Position numbers and translations under genes: made by a program. 64,000 nucleotides of DNA, from positions 32,001 to 96,000 of the IMG/VR virus record IMGVR_UViG_3300018080_000009, one strand, 5' to 3'. The notes under the pieces are model-generated. The model worked only from the letters and a program-made list of their open reading frames with translations, had not been told where the DNA came from and did no database searches. This DNA comes from a virus. How positions within the stretch are numbered: the stretch's first letter is position 1; every line of letters begins with the position of its first letter. Below are positions 27,832 through 60,210 of the stretch, piece by piece.

Positions 27832-28536
27832 ATGAAAACTTTAATGCATTTGTGTCTTTTGTTTCTTTTGGTTTTGTTTCAGTGTTCAGAAGGAGAAATA
27901 GATAGAGATTCCGATACTGATACGGACACAGATACCTATACAGGAGGTGATGTAGATGGAGACTCTGATACTGATACCGATAATGATACTGATAGCGATT
28001 CAGATATGGACACAGATACTGATACCGATTCCGACTCCGACACGGATACAGATACTGACGCAGATATTGATACTGATAGCGACAGTGACAGTGACACGGA
28101 TGTAGACGGAGATACTTGGGTAGATCCAGATACAGGTTTGATGTGGATAACAAGTCCTTGGAATGCTCTTCCGTCACTTTCTCAAGATGATGCCATCTTG
28201 TATTGTCAAAATTTGGATTATGCTGGAAATACAGATTGGAGACTTCCTGATATTGAAGAAATGAGGACGGTAGTAGTAGATTGTCCAGATATTGAGCCAG
28301 AAGGTGATTGTGGAGTGACTGAAGACTGTCTAGAATCTTATTGTGTAGAAGGATGCATTTTTTGTGACGACGGGAATTCTCATCAAGAAGAAGTTTTTGG
28401 AGGACCGTTTATGTACTTGTGGTCTTCGTCTCCAATTCCCGATTGGCCAGAATATGGTTGGACTATGAGCTATGCAAATGCTGGTATTGTTGCTGTAATT
28501 TCTGAGAACCCTTGGTACGTGAGATGTGTCCGTTAA
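27832..28536 (+). CDS. Lipoprotein-like DT/DS-repeat protein with DUF1566 (Lcl C-terminal) domain
   Basis: Signal peptide ending in Cys; (DT/DS)n tract; VDPDTGLMW...AILYC...DWRLPDIEE...WSSS...YVRCVR. Confidence 0.8.
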   Translation: MKTLMHLCLLFLLVLFQCSEGEIDRDSDTDTDTDTYTGGDVDGDSDTDTDNDTDSDSDMDTDTDTDSDSDTDTDTDADIDTDSDSDSDTDVDGDTWVDPDTGLMWITSPWNALPSLSQDDAILYCQNLDYAGNTDWRLPDIEEMRTVVVDCPDIEPEGDCGVTEDCLESYCVEGCIFCDDGNSHQEEVFGGPFMYLWSSSPIPDWPEYGWTMSYANAGIVAVISENPWYVRCVR

Positions 28537-28555
28537 AAACAATTGGATAAAAAGT

Positions 28556-28583
28556 TTGACAAAACTCTAGTATATAATATACT
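28556..28583 (+). promoter_or_regulatory. Sigma70-type promoter, copy 3
   Basis: TTGACA-16-TATACT. Confidence 0.65.
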
Positions 28584-28644
28584 TGCCGTATGAACTGTAA
28601 CCGTAAAATTCTCAGTCCAAATGACGGAAGGAGATTCAGTAGAC

Positions 28645-29391
28645 ATGCCAAAGACACAGCAGTCAGACAAAGAAAAATTTGGGGTTACGAAGGAGATGAG
28701 AGAAACATATGAACGCATAATGCGTCGAAGACTCTCTAGTCCTACATTCCATTACAGAGTTGATGAAAACGGTGAAGAGGTGAAAGTCTATCATCGAGAC
28801 AGATCAACGAATTGGAATGATTCCAATGAAGGCACTGTCCGAAGAAAACAGCCGTATATGATGGGAGAGGGATTAGGTAACAATCTAGGGATTGATAAGC
28901 CTAAGTATACGTATTCTGAACGAGTCGAGGAGGTAGATGAAGAAGAAAGAGATTTCCAGAGGAAGGTACGTAGACTCAAGACTCAGTTGACTCGTAGGAA
29001 AAATAAGGTAAGAGTTGAATCCCAGAAGAAGGCTGAAGAGGACGGAAGGTGGATGACAGGACAACGTATTTTTGCTCTCAAGCGTACGTATGATCAGAAT
29101 TTGAATCATGGTCGTGATTTTGAGACTCGTTCAAAACGCTTGAAGATACAGATTCCCGATGGAGTAGATGTTGCCCAGACAGAATTTGGTATGCTCCTCA
29201 TTATTCCAGTAATAGAAGCAGAAGAGGGTTGGAGCAAAGGTTTAGGCAATCCGAAGAAAGATCCATATGGCAGGAATTTTTGGGTCAGTACCGAAGTCAA
29301 AGAGGCAGTCCAGAATTTATTTGGATATGTTAATTGGGAACGACCCCTAACTATTCCAGAAGCAGAGCAGTTTGGAGTAAAGGTGTTGTAA
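28645..29391 (+). CDS. Hypothetical protein
   Basis: ATG at 28645 after GAAGGAG; first gene after promoter. Confidence 0.55.
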   Translation: MPKTQQSDKEKFGVTKEMRETYERIMRRRLSSPTFHYRVDENGEEVKVYHRDRSTNWNDSNEGTVRRKQPYMMGEGLGNNLGIDKPKYTYSERVEEVDEEERDFQRKVRRLKTQLTRRKNKVRVESQKKAEEDGRWMTGQRIFALKRTYDQNLNHGRDFETRSKRLKIQIPDGVDVAQTEFGMLLIIPVIEAEEGWSKGLGNPKKDPYGRNFWVSTEVKEAVQNLFGYVNWERPLTIPEAEQFGVKVL

Positions 29392-52536: not shown

Positions 52537-53220
52537 ATGAGTTGGAAGTCGAATCTTCGTAAGAATCTTGAGGCTATGAAGTGGTTGTATTCTAAGGTTG
52601 ATGAGACCATGGAGAAAGCTGCTAAGAAGTACAATGCTCCGTGTAAGAGTGGATGCTATGATTGTTGCCATCAATTAGTAACCATGACTCTAGCTGAAGG
52701 GGTATGTATCATAGATGGAATCTATAGATCTTTACCTCGTGGAGGATCTTTGAAGTCTGTTTTGAATCCTATTTTAAAAGAATCTAGCAATCAGTTTAAG
52801 CTCTTGGTTGAAGACCCAGGAATGAATGTAGAAAGATGGTTTTCTAAGAAAACAAGATGTGTTCTCCTGGATTCAGAGGGTAGGTGTAGGGTATACGAAA
52901 ATCGTCCAGTAGCTTGTAGAAGCCATATGGTTACTGAAGGGTCTGACTGTAGCGTGAATAGCATAGGTGCGATGAATCCGCATGTGAATAATCACGATAT
53001 GATTCAGGCTTCTTTAGAGGCTGGAAGACGATTCTCAGATGCGATTAATATTCCTTTGGGGTATGCTCCTTTGCCAGCAGCATTAGTTTGGGCTTCTATC
53101 TTGTACTTGGAGAGTCGTGATGGTTTGATGAGAAAACTGAAGGGTACAGTTTTTGAAGATGATAAAGCTGGAATGTCATTTTGGGTTTTGAAGCTGAAAA
53201 CCATGCAAGAAATTCAATAG
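52537..53220 (+). CDS. YkgJ/FliB-like cysteine-cluster (CxxxCxxCC) protein
   Basis: CKSGCYDCC...CVLLD..GRCRVYENRPVACR. Confidence 0.8.
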   Translation: MSWKSNLRKNLEAMKWLYSKVDETMEKAAKKYNAPCKSGCYDCCHQLVTMTLAEGVCIIDGIYRSLPRGGSLKSVLNPILKESSNQFKLLVEDPGMNVERWFSKKTRCVLLDSEGRCRVYENRPVACRSHMVTEGSDCSVNSIGAMNPHVNNHDMIQASLEAGRRFSDAINIPLGYAPLPAALVWASILYLESRDGLMRKLKGTVFEDDKAGMSFWVLKLKTMQEIQ

Positions 53221-53251
53221 ACGTGGTAAAGTAACTCAAAGGAGGTAGAGC

Positions 53252-53662
53252 ATGAGATTTCAAATGAGTGCAAAATTTGAGCAAGGAGTTGCTGATGTAG
53301 ATCCAGTAACTGCTCCTCAAAATATACTTGTAGAGCATTTCTGTGATCCGGGTGTAAAGGCACCGGATGATCCAGAGGCTTTGTATCTAGCTTTAATGGG
53401 TACTGGTGCAGAGACAGTTACTCTCGATTTGTACCTTTTGATTGAGAGCAAAAATGTAGATGCTAAGGCTGCGGATTACAAAGAGGCAGGAACGAGATGG
53501 TTCCAATTTGCAACAGGTCTAGTAGTAACCAATGGTACATTGGCTTCAGTAACGGCTAATTTGCCTGCTGGTGGAATAATTTATGCTCGTAGAACAGCGG
53601 ATGCAATTACTGTGGGTCAAACTAGATCACTGTTAATGAGCTGGAATCCTGCTGTCCAATAA
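53252..53662 (+). CDS. Hypothetical protein
   Basis: RBS AAGGAGGT. Confidence 0.55.
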   Translation: MRFQMSAKFEQGVADVDPVTAPQNILVEHFCDPGVKAPDDPEALYLALMGTGAETVTLDLYLLIESKNVDAKAADYKEAGTRWFQFATGLVVTNGTLASVTANLPAGGIIYARRTADAITVGQTRSLLMSWNPAVQ

Positions 53663-53687
53663 ATTCAGAAATGTACAAATTCACTGC

Positions 53688-53715
53688 TTGACAAAACTCT
53701 GAAGTATATTACCTT
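53688..53715 (+). promoter_or_regulatory. Sigma70-type promoter, copy 5
   Basis: TTGACA-16-TACCTT; CACTGCTTGACAAAAC identical to copy 1. Confidence 0.7.
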
Positions 53716-53771
53716 TATATGTAGACATAGAACAAAGGGTCGTTAGACCCCGTAAGACACAGGAGTAAGAC

Positions 53772-54422
53772 ATGGCAACCACAAAGAAGAAAACCGTCAA
53801 GAAAACCACAGCAAAGAAATCAGTCAAAAAGACTGTAGCCAAGAAACCAACTGACAAGAAAGTGTCTTCCGAGAAGACAACAGCCAAGAAGGCTGATCCT
53901 AAGAAACCCGTCAAAGAAAAGGTGGCTCCGGTGAAGATCGATATTTTTGCCAAGCACCATTTATTTTCGGTAAAGCTGCCGAAGGGTACAGAGGTTACCA
54001 GAAGAAGCAGAAGGCCGGTAGTAGCCGTTGTTGCTTTGGTTCATGCTGACGGCCATCAAGGAGTTGTTCAGTGGACCAGCAACCTGTCCAGAGCCCGTTT
54101 TGTGGCTAAGGAACATGAGGATCGATCCAAGGATGGCGGAAAAGGTTACGCCAAGGCTTTTGGCAAGAAACCCCCGAAATGGTTTCAAGAGCATGGTGCA
54201 CCGGTTGAGGTGAAGATCCTGACTGAGGTTAAGGATCTCGGTGAAGCTCCAGAGGAAGTTAAGGAGAAAGCTCCGAGAGCAAAGAAAAATAAGAAATCAG
54301 TTCCAGTCGATGACATCTTCAAGACCAAAATTCAAGCCGAGAAAGCAGCAAAGGCTCTGAAGCTGAATCCGGAAAAAGTCATTTCCAAAGTAGACGAGGG
54401 TTGGAAGGTATCTTTGCCCTAG
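53772..54422 (+). CDS. Lys-rich protein with histone H1-like N-terminal repeats
   Basis: TKKKTVKKTTAKKSVKKTVAKK... Confidence 0.6.
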   Translation: MATTKKKTVKKTTAKKSVKKTVAKKPTDKKVSSEKTTAKKADPKKPVKEKVAPVKIDIFAKHHLFSVKLPKGTEVTRRSRRPVVAVVALVHADGHQGVVQWTSNLSRARFVAKEHEDRSKDGGKGYAKAFGKKPPKWFQEHGAPVEVKILTEVKDLGEAPEEVKEKAPRAKKNKKSVPVDDIFKTKIQAEKAAKALKLNPEKVISKVDEGWKVSLP

Positions 54423-55176
54423 GTTTATCCGTCTATATAGGAGTTAGAACATGAAAACATGGGTGTATACTAAGCCTACATACGGAAAAGACAAACCTGG
54501 TTACGTGTATTTTTCTGAAGATCTTAGACCTAAGCTTATTTGGGTTGGTGATGTTCCTCATTTGCTTAGAGCAGGAGATATGATTCAAGTTGTAGAAGGG
54601 TTTTGCGTAGAGACTGTTGATTATGTTTATTATGATTTGAATGAGGACAGTCAAGAAGTCCATTTAGTAACGATGGATTCTGGCAATGAATATGAAGAGT
54701 GTGAGGAAGCAGACTAAGGTATGATTTGTGAATTCTGTAAGAGGGATCAGATGAAGGATCTTACCCAGGGATTGGGTGAGACAAGGAATCTCTATTGTTC
54801 TAGATGCAGAGCTCATTTTTATCTAGGTAGGTGGTATTCCAAAAAAGAATGGGATGAGTATGTGGAGGATATAGATGTGGATTGAGAAAGATAGAGAAGC
54901 TGCTGAAAAGAGGATAGCTGAGCTCATCGAAGAAAGAGATGAGTATGACAAGCGTCGTAGAGAAACGATGGAAATATCTGAGAGATGGAGGACTGCATAT
55001 CATAGTCTTGCAGAGTTAGAGGGGAAGCCGATAATATCTCCAGATGTTGATGTAGTAGTTAAGAATTCTTTGTCTTCAGGAGATCTCTATTTAGTTCGAG
55101 CCCATACTTATGAGATGGATAGTGCATTGAATGAGCTGACAATACGATTCAAAGTTTTGGATATAGGGAAGTATTG

Positions 55177-55526
55177 ATGATCCCTCTTACAGGAAAATTG
55201 CCTCCAGATGGGAACTAGTTGAGACAAGGGCAGACGGGTCTTCTTGGATAAATCGCAAGAAGAAGCTTTATGTCATTGGTTCAATTGCAGTTGAGCAAGA
55301 TGGAAAGAGATGGTTGCACTTGTCGATGTCTCATCAGAAGAGAATTACGAATTATGAAGAGCTTACGTATCTAAAGAGACATTGGGCAGGAGATGACAGA
55401 AAATGTATAATGGTACTTCCAGCTAAGAAAGAGCATGTGAATATCCATCCAAATGTACTGCATTTGTTCTGTTGTCTAGATGAAGACCCATTACCAGATT
55501 TTACTCGTGGATTGGGTATGATCTGA
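55177..55526 (+). pseudogene. Frameshifted conserved-type phage gene (WLHLS...HVNIHPNVLHL family)
   Basis: ATG at 55177 gives MIPLTGKLPPD then stops; a -1 shift near 55208 continues WELVETRADG...WLHLSMSH. Confidence 0.55.
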
Positions 55527-55554
55527 AAATAGCAGAAAGACAAAGGAGAAAGAC

Positions 55555-56202
55555 ATGAAAGTAAGACTTACATTGGTAGAAGAAATGCTGGGAACCTCGT
55601 GTTCGAATCCCGAGGTGCATGAGGAATTCATTGCCAGCAAGAGTGCAGACAAGGTGAAAATCAAAGAGGAGCTTGAAGCTCTTCCAGCCGAAGTGTTGAT
55701 AGAGAAATCCTTGACGATTTTTCCACGAGATGAAAATGGAAATCCATTCCTCTATGATTATCAGATCAGGGGATTCTTGAAGAATTTCCTAGGAACGAAG
55801 GTTGAGTTTGGACCATTGGTGCTGAAGGTAGGTAAGAAGGATTATAAGTTTTCGAAATGGACCTACAAACGTCTTGTTGATAACTATGTCTTTGTCAAGC
55901 CGCGGAGGATCAAGTTGAACATGCCAGAAGGAAGTGAAGTTAGTTTCTGTACACGTCCACTAAGAGCTGAGACAATGAAGGGTGAGAGGGTGGCTTTAGC
56001 TACATCAGAAGCTGTCCCAGCAGGAACGACATTTGAATTCGAGATAAGGTGTCTTCAGCCAGAACTGTATGATTTGATGCCAGAAGCTCTAGACTACGGT
56101 GAATTCAATGGATTGCTTCAATGGAGGAATTCGGGAAAAGGTACCTTCACTTGGGAGGATCTAGATGAGCAAAAAGTCGAGGAAAGCAAGAAATCGGCGT
56201 AA
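55555..56202 (+). CDS. Stand-alone RAMP/Cas7-like (Csm3-type fold) protein
   Basis: MKVRLTL..EMLG, P.LY...IRGFLK, FV.P..I, RPLR, SEAVPAGTTFEFEI, terminal G-rich loop YG..NGLLQWRNSGKGTF. Confidence 0.7.
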   Translation: MKVRLTLVEEMLGTSCSNPEVHEEFIASKSADKVKIKEELEALPAEVLIEKSLTIFPRDENGNPFLYDYQIRGFLKNFLGTKVEFGPLVLKVGKKDYKFSKWTYKRLVDNYVFVKPRRIKLNMPEGSEVSFCTRPLRAETMKGERVALATSEAVPAGTTFEFEIRCLQPELYDLMPEALDYGEFNGLLQWRNSGKGTFTWEDLDEQKVEESKKSA

Positions 56203-56335
56203 AAGAAGACAAGAAAAGGATTTTCTCAAGAATGGTTCCAAACCCAGACACAAATCGAAAAGTGGACGTACTGGAAAGATTCAAAGTACTAAGAACAAGT
56301 CCCTGAATGATAGAGCACAACGAAAAAAGAAGTAA
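56165..56335 (+). CDS. 56-aa Arg/Lys-rich peptide overlapping the RAMP gene 3' end
   Basis: GGAGG upstream; MSKKSRKARNRRKRRQEKDFLKNGSKPRHKSKSGRTGKIQSTKNKSLNDRAQRKKK*. Confidence 0.45.
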   Translation: MSKKSRKARNRRKRRQEKDFLKNGSKPRHKSKSGRTGKIQSTKNKSLNDRAQRKKK

Positions 56336-56340
56336 AAGAG

Positions 56341-56880
56341 AAGTTATGTGCAGTTCTGTAAGGGAACGGTGCTGAATCATCAAGTATGATTCCGTAATGG
56401 TAATGAAAGGAAGAGCATATCAACGTCTTGTATCGGAAGGGTACTGTTCAGCTTAGTTATGAAGTGTATAGGTACTGATGAGTCTTGTGTGATTTTGTAG
56501 GGGAAGAGTACAGATGCGTATTTATGAGAGGGGTAACGTCCAGGTGTAGTTGAGCAGTTTGGAGTTATGGAGTGGCGCGGTAAAGTTGCGTTCTGGTATG
56601 GTCCTGTGAAGTCATGTAAAGGATACGTATTGAACTGTTATATAGGGTCCAGATATGGTCTGGTATGGTGACGAGAATATCCGTAGAGGATGTGAGGCGT
56701 TTGGTAAAGTTATGTCACGTCAAGGAACTGAAAAGTCATGTTTGATTTAGTAGTGGCGTGGTCGGGTCTGGTGCTGGCATGTACGATGGGGTCTAGTGGA
56801 GGCGCTGTGTTATTCGGTAGTGAAGTGTCCCGTTGGGCACAGGAAGAGTGCTGCGTTGAAGTGTGAGAAAGGGACTTGTG
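56341..56880 (+). repeat. Non-coding array with 5-nt periodicity, divided into 5n+1-nt units (candidate guide-RNA array)
   Basis: G (most often GT) every 5 nt; phase advances +1 at 15 GG dinucleotides; no ORF >=60 aa on either strand from 56384 to 57051. Confidence 0.8.
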
Positions 56881-56983
56881 GTTCAATACAGACGTTCCGT
56901 GGGAGGAACAAGGCTTCTGTCTTGTCTCAATTAAAGAAGTCTAGCAAACAAAAGGAGGTAGCAGGGGATAAATAGGTGTGTCC

Positions 56984-57033
56984 GGCATCTGTCTGTGGAG
57001 AGTCAGTAGGTTCGAATCCTACCAGATGCCCCA
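56984..57033 (+). ncRNA. tRNA-like minihelix (acceptor + T arm + CCA)
   Basis: GGCATCTG/CAGATGCC-CCA; GTAGG-TTCGAAT-CCTAC; only 14 nt in place of D and anticodon arms. Confidence 0.65.
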
Positions 57034-57051
57034 GTCAAAAAGGAGAAGACA

Positions 57052-57789
57052 ATGAAATACAGTCCAAGGGATAGGTGTACAGAAGAAGAATTGGCAATAA
57101 CCAGTATTGATAATGATACTGTCTTTACTGATGCAGTAGTATCGAAAGTGCTTCCTAATGATGTGAAATTTGTAGATGGCTTTCATTTGTTTGTTGAAGA
57201 TGCTGAAAAGTATGTTCAGCCAGATGATACGCTTCGATTATATGGCCAAGGTATTGGTCATGTTGTAAGAGGAGTGGCGGTAGTCAAAGAAAATGGGAAG
57301 ATAGAAGTATTGAGATATAAAACTCCTCTAGAGTCTGCCACAGAAGACTGTAAACGGTTTGAGGAAAACGATAGAAAGCGTGAAGAACAAGCTGAGAAGA
57401 TACGTAAACAAGTTGATGTTGATCAGCCTCCCAAGTTTAAGTGTAAGGATCTAGATGCTTGGAAGACCTGGGTGAAGAATAATCTTGAGCCCTATGGTCG
57501 TGCAGTAATTGTGTATGCTGAAAGATGGGCTGTACTGATGGAAAAGAAGATGGCTGAGGGTGCGACTCTAAAAGACATTGCCAAAGATACAAGTCACGAA
57601 GCAGACACAGATGGGATCACTGGATTCATGTATGGTGCAGCCATAGCTACACTTGTTGGAACGTGGGAACATGGAGAAGAGCTGAGAAAATGGCATAATC
57701 TAGATATGCAGATGGGAGACGAGGGTGAGAAAGCCAATGAAGAAGGTGGAGTATTGAATCCTGCTTGTTTGAGTATCAGCAGTTACTAA
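57052..57789 (+). CDS. Hypothetical phage protein
   Basis: RBS AAGGAG; GITGFMYGAA...WEHGEELRKWHN. Confidence 0.6.
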   Translation: MKYSPRDRCTEEELAITSIDNDTVFTDAVVSKVLPNDVKFVDGFHLFVEDAEKYVQPDDTLRLYGQGIGHVVRGVAVVKENGKIEVLRYKTPLESATEDCKRFEENDRKREEQAEKIRKQVDVDQPPKFKCKDLDAWKTWVKNNLEPYGRAVIVYAERWAVLMEKKMAEGATLKDIAKDTSHEADTDGITGFMYGAAIATLVGTWEHGEELRKWHNLDMQMGDEGEKANEEGGVLNPACLSISSY

Positions 57790-58033
57790 GAGGTAGTCAT
57801 GACCAGTGGTGAAAAGATGGTATGGGCAGCAGCTTTTTTAAAGTCTTTTGATCTGAGATTGAATGAGAATCATTTTCGTGATCCGTCAAAGAAAGCAGCA
57901 TTGGCTACAGTAGATGCAATGCATACTGTGAAGAGCCTTAGAGAAGCTGAGGACTATATAATTAAAAGTTGGGGAATAGACAGTGAAGTCTATTCCATGT
58001 ACTGCCAAATGTTCGATAAATAAGGAGAGTAAA

Positions 58034-58534
58034 ATGCAAGATCTTAGAGGAAAAGGAATAACAAAAATAGCTCTGCCCAGTGAGGTAGAAGAACTTAGTA
58101 GACAGGGGTATGAGTTGATAGGCATGTACCAGAATCTGGAGGGTACTGCTATCAGATGTGAAGTTCCAAATGAAACCAGGCCATATGAGACGTATTTTGT
58201 TGATAAGCCTGGAGTTAGTGCTGTCTCATATTTCATCATGAGATTGGATGAGGATTCTGCTATCAAGAAATTAAATGATCAATTGGAATCTAGTGAGAAA
58301 GAATTAAGGCAGTACAAGAAAAACTTTGAAGATGCGCATGAGAGTCTTATTCGTATGAGTAAACATACTGAACAGCAAGAGCTTGTTATTCAGTCATTGA
58401 ATGAGGAGAGAAACAAACTGAAGAAGGATATCACGTCGATTCAGGAGGGTACTTTTAAAGTAGAAGAAGATTTGGGAAAGGTTCGAGAAGCCCTGGGAAC
58501 TGAGAAGATGAATCAGATACTTGCTGGTAAGTAG
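58034..58534 (+). CDS. Coiled-coil hypothetical protein
   Basis: ATG at 58034 after AAGGAG. Confidence 0.5.
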   Translation: MQDLRGKGITKIALPSEVEELSRQGYELIGMYQNLEGTAIRCEVPNETRPYETYFVDKPGVSAVSYFIMRLDEDSAIKKLNDQLESSEKELRQYKKNFEDAHESLIRMSKHTEQQELVIQSLNEERNKLKKDITSIQEGTFKVEEDLGKVREALGTEKMNQILAGK

Positions 58535-59700
58535 ATATGGATTTCAAGAAATTCATAGATGCGTTTAATGAAAACTTTGGAGACAATGTGTTTCCAAAAG
58601 GATTCATTGAAGCTAGGTTCAGAGGAAGTGATGTCTATATCCGTATTGGTGATAGAGATCTTACTCTGTCTCCAGATGGAGAGTTTTTGGAAGCAAGTAG
58701 AGTCGAATTTGGTGTGAGTGATTGGATAATCAGAGAAAATCATGCTGGGTGTTAGGAGCAGTCATGGAAGACAAGAAAAAAGAAATAGTGAGTAAAATGA
58801 GAGAATCCTTAGCCATAGCTGGATATGATACCTCTGTAATGACTGATGAAGAGGTATTTCAATGGGGATTGGGATTTTTCGATAAGTTGGCCAAGATTGG
58901 TGAAGGACTTGTAGAGGCATTGTCTAAGATATTCGAAGCTGTAGCAGAATGTGGATGTTCACTGAGTGAATTTGGTGAAGGGTGAGATTGAGTGGGTAGA
59001 TAAAGAGTTGGAATTGTATGTAGTTCATTTTACTGAATCTGAAGACAATGTTTTGTACAGAATATCTGATGATTCCAGAGGATATTCAGTAGACTTGTGG
59101 AAAAAGGTTCTAGTAGATATGAAATCCAGGTATGAACCGCCAGAGATAGATGAATTTCCTACAGGGACTAAGTACATAGTAAAGAGCTTTACAGAAGAAC
59201 AAAATAACGATTCTGATCAGGTGTAGTTTGTACTTAGCGATGTGGAGTATCAAAGGAGTAGATATGAAAGAAGATGTTGATTACAGTAAAATGAAGGACG
59301 AAGAATTTCAGGAAATCCTTGAAGAGATTGTCAATGAGGAGGGGGCCAATATTCTTTCGATTGGCGATGTGTACTCTGAGTTAAGTGAGCATTTTAATAA
59401 TGATGTATTGGATAGATGGGCAGAGAGGAATCCAGATAAAGCCTATCCAGATGCTTCTAAGGACTAGATTATGTGCAAAGATAATTCGATACCGTTGTCT
59501 GAGTTTATCAGCAAGCAAGTAGCTGGGATGGAGAAGGTAATAGAAAATTACGAACATATCTTGGGAGAAGTTTTAGCTACGCTGAAAGTCAATATGGAGA
59601 GGGGTTCTCTAAAGGTAGTTGGAGAAGGTACTGAAGAGATCTTCATTCAGTTGATAGCTAATTGGGAGAAGCAGTATAAGCTCTTGAAAGGTAAGTAATC

Positions 59701-60210
59701 ATGACTGTTTGGTATCAGTTGGTTTTGCTTGAGTTTAAGACTCAATTTTTTCCGAAGATGCTTCTGAACGAAATGATGGAGAAGTATGGTAAGGAGAAAG
59801 AAGCTTATAAGATAGAAAAGCTCAAAGAAGTTCCTGAAATATTCCTTGATTATGGTGGAATGTGTCAGGAGGGTATGGTTGACATGGAATTTGAGCTTCC
59901 GGGATGTATCTTGAAGATACCGGCCAGAGATGTAGAATTGTTTTTCAGGCAATTGAATAGTGTAGAGCCCAGGAATGATTTTTCAGTACTTTATTATAAG
60001 TACATAAGTCATTGGACGTGCATTATTTTGCTCCCAAGTCAGAGAGATATTCTATTGCCGTTGGTAGCTGATAAACTTCAAGAAGCTTGTGAAATAGCGG
60101 AGAAAGAGTGGGCAGATCTACGCAAAGCTACGGAGGATATTAATAAGAAGGCGGGAAGGATTGCAGTAATTCCTCCGTCTAGAGCTTTGAGGGAAGAAGA
60201 CATTAATTAG
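59701..60210 (+). CDS. Hypothetical protein
   Basis: 169-aa ORF in a run of small genes. Confidence 0.45.
   Translation: MTVWYQLVLLEFKTQFFPKMLLNEMMEKYGKEKEAYKIEKLKEVPEIFLDYGGMCQEGMVDMEFELPGCILKIPARDVELFFRQLNSVEPRNDFSVLYYKYISHWTCIILLPSQRDILLPLVADKLQEACEIAEKEWADLRKATEDINKKAGRIAVIPPSRALREEDIN

What the first reader, a model, noticed from the sequence alone, without database searches (positions are those of the whole stretch)
56341..56880. Hidden grammar of the array: G every 5 nt, with +1 phase slips always at GG
By manual count with phases fitted by eye, 93 of 105 expected positions are G, most often followed by T. Eight of the 12 misses are A (transitions). The phase always advances by exactly +1, at GG dinucleotides starting at 56363, 56399, 56440, 56471, 56502, 56543, 56574, ~56595, 56621, ~56657, 56688, 56724, 56755, 56801 and 56842. 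This gives 14 units of 36, 41, 31, 31, 41, 31, 21, 26, 36, 31, 36, 31, 46 and 41 nt. An example unit is GG ATGT GAGGC GTTTG GTAAA GTTAT GTCAC GTCAA GG. The intervening bases differ in every unit, so this is not a simple slipped microsatellite. A conserved frame with free payload suggests information storage. Standard CRISPR or tandem-repeat finders would probably miss it.
Basis: seen in the sequence. Interest (0 to 1): 0.9.

Follow-up and report, generated by a model that had tools for sequence, protein, structure and literature searches.

The report
Phage VIPR guide-RNA array
The "G every five letters" pattern is real and is the guide-RNA array of a VIPR system, a phage-borne relative of CRISPR first described in 2026 preprints, so it is a new example of a known kind, not a new kind.

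Summary
Window 56338-56878 holds 106 phased positions: 94 G, 8 A and 4 T. They are linked by 90 steps of 5 nt and 15 steps of 6 nt, and every 6-nt step lies at a GG. The fit scores about 10 SD above shuffles, and the array is unique in the 104-kb phage genome.

The gene just upstream (55555-56202) encodes a small Cas7/Csm3-like RAMP protein. More than 150 related viral and proviral loci carry the same pairing: a lone RAMP gene with a G-periodic array of period 5.15 beside it, on the same strand.

This matches the published VIPR systems (Vipr protein plus vrRNAs made of pentanucleotide repeats; bioRxiv 10.64898/2026.04.26.720920 and .720927). In those systems one Vipr protomer binds each 5-nt repeat, and the variable bases guide DNA recognition.

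This locus belongs to a divergent, vap-less branch, probably type I. Its repeat consensus is N-G-H-N-N, it has no 3' tail, and its modules are 5k+1 nt long and joined at GG. That probably corresponds to the paper's "staggered arrays".

Expression, processing and targets could not be shown here. Other agents of this scan had already found VIPR loci on other DNA.

The parts
55555..56202 (+). vipr gene: 215-aa single-RRM RAMP protein, Cas7/Csm3-like, with the C-terminal glycine-rich loop G-L-L-Q-W-R-N-S-G-K-G
   Evidence: AF2 model has mean pLDDT 79.9. Foldseek against PDB: type VII Cas7, E 1.6e-7, prob 1.00, followed by Csm3, Cmr4 and Cas7-11. BFVD top hit is a 'Cas system-associated RAMP superfamily protein' of a siphovirus, E 4e-22. 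There is no Pfam or PHROG family. At least 980 homologues exist. Profile-profile match to the SUSP1 Vipr family covers the G-loop: prob 56%, E 1.1e-4.
56338..56878 (+). vrRNA array: 105 repeats (90 pentamers, 15 hexamers) with consensus G-[T>A>C]-N-N-N, arranged in modules of 5-9 repeats (26-46 nt, always 5k+1) joined at GG
   Evidence: The array is non-coding. Its predicted RNA structure is no stronger than shuffles, z = -1.1. No terminator-like site lies on the + strand between the gene and the array.
56363..56843 (+). the 15 GG junctions, with the first G at 56363, 56399, 56435, 56471, 56502, 56543, 56569, 56595, 56621, 56657, 56688, 56724, 56755, 56801 and 56842
   Evidence: Pooled over 80 related arrays, the 6-nt step reads G-C-A-A-N-G with G at position 6 in 92%. 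Position 5 of the hexamer is the least constrained position (17% substitutions), while position 6 G is as conserved as the phase G (3.6%).
56985..57030 (+). tRNA-like minihelix with a 7-bp acceptor stem, a T arm and an encoded CCA, about 105 nt after the array. It may be a lineage-specific 3' processing element. Whether it belongs to the system is unproven.
   Evidence: Rfam tRNA model scores 23.3 bits, below the gathering score of 29, and only the acceptor and T arm are matched. ARAGORN does not call it. Among about 165 related loci only this one has such an element next to the array.

Best explanation
Window 55555-56878 is a VIPR (Viral Interference Programmable Repeat) locus of a 104-kb phage with direct terminal repeats. 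It consists of a vipr gene for a small Cas7-like RAMP protein, followed on the same strand by a 541-nt array that is transcribed into vrRNA.

Inferred by analogy with the solved SUSP1 and P. fulva complexes: one Vipr protomer binds each 5-nt repeat, and the protomers stack into a right-handed helical filament. The thumb and the glycine-rich loop (W190 and R191 here) hold the invariant G and the base after it. The variable bases are exposed to pair, in a gapped register, with double-stranded DNA of a competing mobile element and silence it.

The +1 slips are module boundaries. Each module is 5k+1 nt long. It starts with a canonical-looking G-G-H, continues with k-1 repeats of N-G-H-N-N, and ends with one spare nucleotide. 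The array is therefore a head-to-tail string of about 16 short tail-less guides. This is most likely what the discovery paper calls a 'staggered' vrRNA array.

Shown here: the grammar, its selective conservation, the RAMP fold, and the gene-array linkage in more than 150 loci.

Inferred from the literature or by analogy: transcription, protein binding, DNA targeting, and cutting at the GG junctions.
For: 1. The grammar is far beyond chance and unique in the genome.

2. The neighbouring protein has a Cas7/Csm3 fold with a thumb hairpin and the G-loop pattern GxGxxxxxGxG.

3. In the 80 best IMG/VR loci encoding a relative, the strongest 4.6-6.6-nt periodicity of any base is almost always G. Its period is 5.10-5.26, it abuts the gene upstream or downstream, and it lies on the gene's strand.
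   - The same holds in 73 of 80 loci from bacterial and archaeal assemblies of GC 32-67%.
   - The opposite strand scores at background.

4. Pooled over 80 arrays:
   - Steps are 5240 of 5 nt, 941 of 6, 25 of 4 and 13 of 7.
   - Position 1 is G in 94%; position 2 is G in only 5%.
   - The 6-nt step ends in G in 92%.
   - Modules peak at 26, 31 and 36 nt.
   The period per array is 5.151 +/- 0.021.

5. Related arrays keep the G while the other positions diverge, and they gain or lose 5, 10, 26, 31 or 36 nt.

6. No other gene is conserved beside it.

7. The published description of VIPR fits on each point:
   - a phage-borne minimal RAMP flanked by long intergenic regions;
   - vrRNAs of tandem pentanucleotide repeats, including YNNNG and NNNNG variants;
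   - staggered arrays (10.64898/2026.04.26.720920, read);
   - one protomer per repeat, with G-loop W178/R179 contacting G2 and Y3 (10.64898/2026.04.26.720927);
   - non-canonical WGT/NN and TGH/NN arrays next to Vipr-like folds (10.64898/2026.10.21.760802).

8. The G-loop aligns with that of SUSP1 Vipr, G-x-G-[D/Q]-W-R. The two SUSP1 residues that read the first G of GGY (H17, D177) are T14 and Q189 here. In keeping with that, the corresponding RNA slot is G in only about 23% of repeats.
Against: - Sequence similarity to the experimentally studied type II Vipr is remote. It reaches hhalign prob 56% over only 55 C-terminal residues, and 5% with a single sequence.
- The array lacks the conserved 3' tail or pseudoknot of type II vrRNAs.
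- Modules of 5-9 repeats are shorter than the 9-16 repeats of characterised vrRNAs.
- A is tolerated at the 'pyrimidine' position in 26-29% of repeats.
- Whether the paper's Fig. S18 shows exactly this GG-junction architecture could not be checked, because figures are not held.
Confidence: 0.9

Rival explanations
1. The system is VIPR, but the array is not cut into short guides. It acts as one long scaffold: a single filament of about 105 protomers, or a decoy or sponge RNA. The spare nucleotide roughly every six repeats would be a register correction, one per helical turn of the filament.
For: The SUSP1 binary filament has six subunits per turn (10.64898/2026.04.26.720927), and the modal module here is six repeats, 31 nt. 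No tails, ribozymes or hairpins separate the modules. Natural vrRNAs of up to 30 repeats are reported. Satellites use stand-alone vrRNAs as decoys (10.64898/2026.10.15.759431).
Against: Module lengths vary from 21 to 46 nt. Successive lengths are uncorrelated (r = -0.02), and phase variance keeps growing with distance. That fits independent units, not a geometric lock. Whole modules of 26, 31 and 36 nt are gained and lost between relatives. Characterised 12-14-repeat vrRNAs of SUSP1 need no spare nucleotide.
Confidence: 0.12
2. The array is a DNA-level element: a protein-binding or bending array read on double-stranded DNA, such as a centromere-like or origin-like site. The 5.15-bp period would be half a helical turn.
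For: 5.15 x 2 = 10.3 bp is close to the B-DNA repeat. Arrays sit beside the gene of their presumed binding protein, as iterons and parC/parS sites do. In relatives the neighbourhood holds SSB, RecT, ERF and SbcC-like genes.
Against: The signal is strictly strand-specific and always on the gene's strand in more than 150 loci. The period comes from discrete 5-nt and 6-nt steps with a fixed GG rule, not from a smooth phase. The partner has an RNA-binding RAMP fold. Published structures show Vipr bound to RNA repeats, one protomer per 5 nt.
Confidence: 0.03
3. The pattern is a chance product of G/T-rich composition, or a decaying pentanucleotide microsatellite without function.
For: The whole phage strand is G-rich and C-poor, with GC skew of 0.2-0.5 throughout.
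Against: Shuffles fitted with the same freedom reach at most 11, against 54.5 for the array. The rest of the genome reaches 8.5. The phase G is selectively conserved across diverged relatives. The same grammar recurs at GC 32-67%.
Confidence: 0.01
4. The region is translated as a repeat protein, possibly with frameshifts at GG.
For: None beyond the regularity itself.
Against: No ORF longer than 58 aa overlaps the region on either strand. A period of 5 is not a multiple of 3. Indels of 5 and 10 nt are tolerated between relatives.
Confidence: 0.005

Closest known systems
VIPR systems (Vipr protein + vrRNA), bioRxiv 10.64898/2026.04.26.720920. By architecture the best fit is type I, the only type for which no vap gene is listed, with 'staggered' arrays.
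   Same: It is a phage-borne, minimal single-RRM RAMP gene flanked by intergenic arrays of tandem pentanucleotide repeats. Each repeat has one or two fixed G's followed by a non-G, and the remaining bases are hypervariable. The array is on the same strand as the gene, there is no CRISPR array, and there are no other cas genes. The paper lists YNNNG and NNNNG repeat variants, as well as arrays in which one vrRNA ends where the next begins.
   Different: The type assignment is inferred: the paper's tree and figures could not be consulted. The paper says experimental confirmation by small-RNA sequencing covers the ribozyme and single-vrRNA architectures, not the staggered one. Processing of this kind of array is therefore still open.
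Type II VIPR of Escherichia phage phiSUSP1 (KT454805: vipr 28474-29061, vap1 28031-28471, four vrRNAs), the experimentally and structurally characterised case
   Same: The protein is of similar size (195 aa against 215 aa) and has the same G-loop core, G-x-G-x-W-R. It has a thumb with an R-P motif (R138-P139 in SUSP1, invariant R134-P135 here). The RNA repeat is 5 nt, and the arrays lie beside the gene.
   Different: - SUSP1 repeats are strict GGY/NN, in runs of 9-16 with no phase slip. Each run ends in a conserved tail with a hairpin or pseudoknot.
- Here the first G is free, A is allowed after the G, and runs are 5-9 repeats separated by one spare nucleotide. There is no tail and no vap1.
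- H17 and D177 of SUSP1 are T14 and Q189 here.
- Profile similarity is only E 1e-4.
Class 1 CRISPR Cas7 backbones (type III Csm3/Cmr4, type VII Cas7)
   Same: It shares the RAMP fold, thumb and G-loop. The subunits form a helical filament along a guide RNA and periodically displace bases.
   Different: CRISPR backbones have a 6-nt period, with sequence-independent binding to a contiguous spacer, and are capped by a repeat-derived handle and by Cas5/Cas6. Here the period is 5 nt, the protein-binding bases are interleaved with the guide bases, and there are no repeat-spacer array, Cas5/6/10/11 or adaptation genes.
TRAP (trp RNA-binding attenuation protein) binding sites
   Same: An RNA with a short motif recurring every 5-6 nt, each copy bound by one subunit of an oligomer. 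This resemblance comes from my own knowledge and was not tested.
   Different: TRAP has an unrelated fold and forms an 11-mer ring. It binds 9-11 GAG/UAG triplets and has a regulatory role. It carries no guide function.

Membership tests
VIPR | Small Vipr protein: single RRM core, glycine-rich loop and thumb, with no second RRM | tested here: met
   AF2 model. Foldseek hits to type VII Cas7, Csm3 and Cmr4 with prob 1.00. The G-loop GxGQWRNSGKG is invariant in the family. The long beta-hairpin 130-154 carries invariant R134-P135.
VIPR | Detectable homology to an experimentally characterised Vipr (phiSUSP1) | tested here: inconclusive
   Family profile against the single SUSP1 sequence: E 0.0077, prob 5%, full-length alignment. 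Family profile against SUSP1-family profile: prob 56%, E 1.1e-4, covering only the last 55 residues including the G-loop. SUSP1 Vipr is not among the BFVD or PDB hits.
VIPR | Intergenic array of at least 4 tandem pentanucleotide repeats with fixed G(G)Y and variable N's, beside vipr | tested here: met
   There are 105 repeats. Position 1 is G in 94 of 106 phase positions; position 2 is T 68, A 27, C 9, G 1; positions 3-5 are near-uniform. The consensus is the YNNNG / WGT-NN variant rather than canonical GGY/NN.
VIPR | Conserved repeat frame with hypervariable guide positions among relatives | tested here: met
   Substitution rate is 3.8% at the phase G, against 9.9-12.8% at positions 2-5. The alignment of 10 related arrays shows invariant G's every 5 columns.
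VIPR | Gene-array linkage conserved across relatives, in viral or proviral DNA | tested here: met
   The record is a complete virus genome with terminal repeats. Arrays lie next to the gene on the same strand in about 80 IMG/VR loci and in 73 of 80 assembly loci.
VIPR type II | vap1 accessory gene, and vrRNAs of 9-16 repeats each ending in a conserved structured tail | tested here: not met
   No neighbouring gene is shared by more than 26 of 82 loci. No conserved sequence follows the arrays. Modules are 5-9 repeats.
VIPR | vrRNA is expressed and co-purifies with Vipr | not testable with these tools
No cultured phage carries this branch: only 4 uncultured faecal phage records were found in GenBank phages.
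VIPR | Natural DNA targets that match the variable dinucleotides under the 1-nt skip rule | tested here: inconclusive
   The 9-repeat module at 56756-56801, written as NN-x (18 specified bases), has 0 exact matches in IMG/VR. For 120 modules of 7 or more repeats, searched in 2.1 Mb of own genome plus related loci, no skip rule beat shuffled-order controls. The exceptions were the period-5 rules, which pick up homologous arrays. The databases searched and the exact-match limit make this a weak test.
CRISPR-Cas | Array of identical 25-40-nt direct repeats separated by unique spacers, with further cas genes (Cas5/6, large subunit or Cas1/2) | tested here: not met
   No tandem or direct repeats were found in the array. 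Rfam has no CRISPR direct-repeat match. No conserved neighbouring genes were found.

The most novel reading that the evidence does not exclude
This large gut and environmental vap-less branch may use a vrRNA architecture and reading rule that differ from the characterised type II systems.

- Its guides would be tail-less, 5k+1 nt long, and only 5-9 repeats each. Each would start at a canonical G-G-H that serves as a nucleation or processing mark.
- Three rather than two free bases per repeat may be available for pairing, because the first-G pocket residues H17 and D177 are replaced by T and Q.
- The array would be processed at the GG junction by an unknown activity. In this phage, the end of the array may be defined by a tRNA-like minihelix cut by RNase P or RNase Z.

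The preprints did not test staggered arrays experimentally.
Probability: 0.2. Interest if true: 0.6.

Novelty: new member of a known kind. Interest (0 to 1): 0.35.

Why it matters
VIPR is a very recently described, phage-borne form of RNA-guided DNA recognition. It has been proposed to predate CRISPR and is of interest as a minimal programmable DNA binder.

This locus adds a well-delimited member from a branch that is very large: at least 980 proteins, at least 567 IMG/VR loci and 159 species-level assemblies. According to the preprints, the array architecture of this branch has not been examined experimentally.

The quantitative grammar derived here could be used directly to annotate such arrays and to design the first processing and targeting experiments for this branch. 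It comprises:
- 5-nt steps, with a 6-nt step only at GG;
- 5k+1 modules peaking at 26, 31 and 36 nt;
- the spare nucleotide as the least constrained position;
- unit-wise indels.

It changes nothing fundamental, because the kind of system and its mechanism are already published.

Tried and rejected
1. Known RNA families: Rfam at gathering and at permissive thresholds gave only a sub-threshold partial tRNA match after the array.
2. Strong RNA structure: the array folds no better than shuffles, z = -1.1.
3. DNA similarity to GenBank phages: none.
4. Half-helical-turn (dsDNA) reading of the 5.15 period. I set this aside because the steps are discrete, successive module lengths are uncorrelated and the signal is strand-specific.
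5. Conserved accessory gene: none found by clustering + strand ORFs of 70 aa or more around 82 loci. Minus-strand and shorter ORFs were not clustered.
7. Target prediction: one exact pattern scan of IMG/VR gave 0 hits. A mismatch-tolerant local search under ten pairing and skip rules showed no excess over shuffled guides.
8. Codon signature in the three free bases. TAA, TAG and CTA are depleted about twofold, but TGA, TCA and TTA are not. This cannot be told apart from general TAG/CTA avoidance.
9. Covariation between the G-loop residue before W and G at the first repeat slot. The branch is almost uniformly Q (133 of 152 loci), so there is no contrast to test.
10. Conservation of the tRNA-like minihelix and of the basic 56-aa ORF in relatives: neither is conserved.
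11. The supplementary files and figures of the VIPR papers are not held. The type assignment and the identity with the 'staggered arrays' of Fig. S18 therefore remain inferences.

Full report
**1. The observation**

The stretch 56341-56880 is non-coding. No ORF of 60 aa or more lies on either strand. It is G-rich and C-poor: G 183, T 161, A 133, C 63.

The G positions are strongly periodic. Autocorrelation is 1.69 at lag 5, 1.46 at lag 10 and 1.63 at lag 26. A sharp Fourier peak lies at 5.14 nt, with its harmonic at 2.57. A sliding-window scan shows this is by far the strongest period-5 signal in the 64-kb window.

I fitted the phase by dynamic programming with steps of 4 to 7 nt allowed. The fit scores 54.5, against -2.5 +/- 5.7 for shuffles given the same freedom, and it never uses a 4-nt step.

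The locally optimal array is 56338-56878. It has 106 phase positions (94 G, 8 A, 4 T), 90 steps of 5 and 15 of 6, and every slip is at a GG. The other two are displaced by one pentamer.

Tandem Repeats Finder sees nothing in the array. In the complete 104,014-bp virus record (direct terminal repeats) no other place on either strand scores above 8.5.

**2. What sits next to it**

The gene ending 135 nt upstream (55555-56202, + strand) has no Pfam or PHROG family. It ends in a classic RAMP glycine-rich loop.

An AlphaFold model built from 22 homologues (pLDDT 79.9) matches type VII Cas7, Csm3, Cmr4 and Cas7-11 with Foldseek probability 1.00. It also matches a viral protein annotated as 'Cas system-associated RAMP' in BFVD.

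The family is large. At least 980 proteins were found in the clustered protein collection, at least 567 loci in IMG/VR, and 159 hits among species-representative assemblies. These are mostly gut Clostridia, Coriobacteriia and Bacteroidales, but also environmental lineages. Only four uncultured faecal phage records, and no isolate, carry it in GenBank phages.

**3. The linkage**

In the 80 best IMG/VR loci, the strongest 4.6-6.6-nt periodicity of any base is G in nearly every case. The period is 5.10-5.26, and the signal lies directly upstream or downstream of the RAMP gene.

Local phase fitting finds arrays of 180-870 nt on the gene's strand in essentially all of them, often on both sides of the gene. 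The opposite strand stays at background. The same is true for 73 of 80 loci from bacterial and archaeal assemblies with GC from 32 to 67%.

No other gene is conserved. The next most common neighbour occurs in 26 of 82 loci. The varying neighbours are SSB, RecT, ERF and SbcC-like ATPases, that is, early recombination modules.

**4. The grammar, pooled**

These figures come from 80 non-redundant arrays.
- There are 5240 steps of 5, 941 of 6, 25 of 4 and 13 of 7.
- Position 1 is G in 94%. Position 2 is C 48%, A 29%, T 18%, G 5%. Positions 3-5 are loosely A-rich.
- The 6-nt step reads G-C-A-A-N-G, with G at its last position in 92%. 'GG at the slip' is therefore a general rule.
- Distances between slips are 5k+1 and peak at 26, 31 and 36 nt.

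The period per array is 5.151 +/- 0.021. Successive module lengths are uncorrelated, and phase variance keeps rising with distance. The non-integer period is therefore a by-product of independent modules, not a helical phase lock.

Between related arrays the phase G changes in 3.8% of aligned sites and the junction G in 3.6%. The other positions change in 10-13%. Position 5 of the hexamer changes in 17%, which marks it as the spare nucleotide.

Indels are 5, 10, 20, 26, 31 and 36 nt, that is, whole repeats or whole modules. A module is best written as G-G-H-N-N, then (N-G-H-N-N) repeated k-1 times, then one free base.

**5. Identification**

A literature search, and in parallel the scan's own earlier notes, led to the VIPR preprints.

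The discovery paper (10.64898/2026.04.26.720920) describes phage-encoded minimal RAMP proteins (Vipr) flanked by intergenic arrays of pentanucleotide repeats.
- The canonical repeat is GGY/NN, with variants NNNGG, YNNNG and NNNNG.
- The arrays are transcribed into vrRNAs that co-purify with Vipr.
- The vrRNAs guide binding to double-stranded DNA through the variable bases, skipping one target base per repeat, and silence competing phages and satellites.
- Seven types are defined. Six vap genes are assigned to types II-VII, so type I appears to be vap-less.

The structural paper (10.64898/2026.04.26.720927) shows the following.
- One protomer binds each repeat in a right-handed filament of six subunits per turn.
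- G1 is read by H17 and D177.
- G2 is held by thumb R138 and G-loop W178.
- Y3 sits in a pocket that includes R179.

A third preprint reports non-canonical WGT/NN and TGH/NN arrays next to Vipr-like folds (10.64898/2026.10.21.760802). This window's repeat (G followed by T in 65%, preceded mostly by A or T) is of that kind.

**6. Membership**

I fetched phiSUSP1 (KT454805) and confirmed the vipr and vap1 genes and the GGY/NN vrRNAs with their tails.

Sequence similarity between that protein and this family is remote. It is E 0.0077 against the single sequence. Profile against profile it reaches probability 56%, E 1.1e-4, restricted to the C-terminal 55 residues. The glycine loop aligns as G-x-G-[D/Q]-W-R.

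W and R, which hold G2 and Y3, are kept here as W190 and R191. Both residues that read G1 are replaced, by T14 and Q189 (low-confidence alignment). In agreement, the G1 slot is G in only about 23% of repeats across the branch.

The type II hallmarks are absent: vap1, a structured tail, and uninterrupted runs of 9-16 repeats. The locus is therefore a VIPR member outside type II. By architecture it is most likely type I with a staggered array. I could not check this against the paper's figures or tables, which are not held.

**7. What remains unshown**

- Transcription and processing could not be tested. According to the discovery paper, small-RNA sequencing confirmed the ribozyme and single-vrRNA architectures, not the staggered one.
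- No target was found. An exact 1-nt-skip pattern from the longest module has no match in IMG/VR. A tolerant search of 2.1 Mb under ten rules shows no excess over shuffled guides. Both are weak tests.
- Whether this branch reads two or three bases per repeat is open. Positions 3, 4 and 5 are equally variable.

**8. Verdict**

The thing is a VIPR vrRNA array with its vipr gene. It is a real and recently published kind of system, and other agents of this scan had already found it on other DNA. It is a new member of a known kind. The residual interest lies in the untested module architecture of this very large branch.

Noticed in passing
window 56985-57030 (+): A 46-nt tRNA-like minihelix: 7-bp acceptor stem, 14-nt linker in place of the D and anticodon arms, perfect T arm, then C and an encoded CCA. 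It lies about 105 nt after the array and 20 nt before the next gene. It scores below threshold in Rfam (23.3 bits) and ARAGORN does not call it. It is not found next to the arrays of about 165 related loci. It could be an RNase P/Z processing signal or a remnant of a tRNA or attachment site.
   Followed up: partly
window 57052-57789 (+): The gene directly after the VIPR locus carries a C-terminal Tad4 (type I Thoeris inhibitor) domain: PF25186, E 1.1e-32; also phrog_9822. An anti-defence gene therefore sits beside the inter-phage weapon.
   Followed up: no
window 56165-56335 (+): A very basic 56-aa ORF overlaps the 3' end of vipr and stops just before the array. tblastn finds no counterpart in about 165 related loci, so it is probably not a conserved accessory gene.
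   Followed up: yes
related loci L004/L061, L014, L070, L091 (arrays next to the vipr homologue): In a few relatives whose repeat is G-C-N-N-N, the complementary strand also shows a period-5 G signal of similar strength, because G and C alternate in phase. Strand assignment from the array alone is ambiguous in those loci.
   Followed up: no
pooled arrays of L002-L165, positions 3-5 of each repeat: The triplets TAA, TAG and CTA are about twofold depleted relative to position-wise expectation, while TAC, TAT, TGA, TCA and TTA are not. This may reflect in-frame coding targets or merely general TAG/CTA avoidance.
   Followed up: partly
window 55314-55526 (+): A small ORF just upstream of vipr matches DUF7694 (PF24746, E 5.9e-16). 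It is not conserved beside vipr in other loci.
   Followed up: no
whole window, 53000-60000 sampled: GC skew is strongly and uniformly positive (0.2-0.55) on the coding strand throughout. The G-richness of the array is therefore partly a genome-wide trait, while the periodicity is not.
   Followed up: partly
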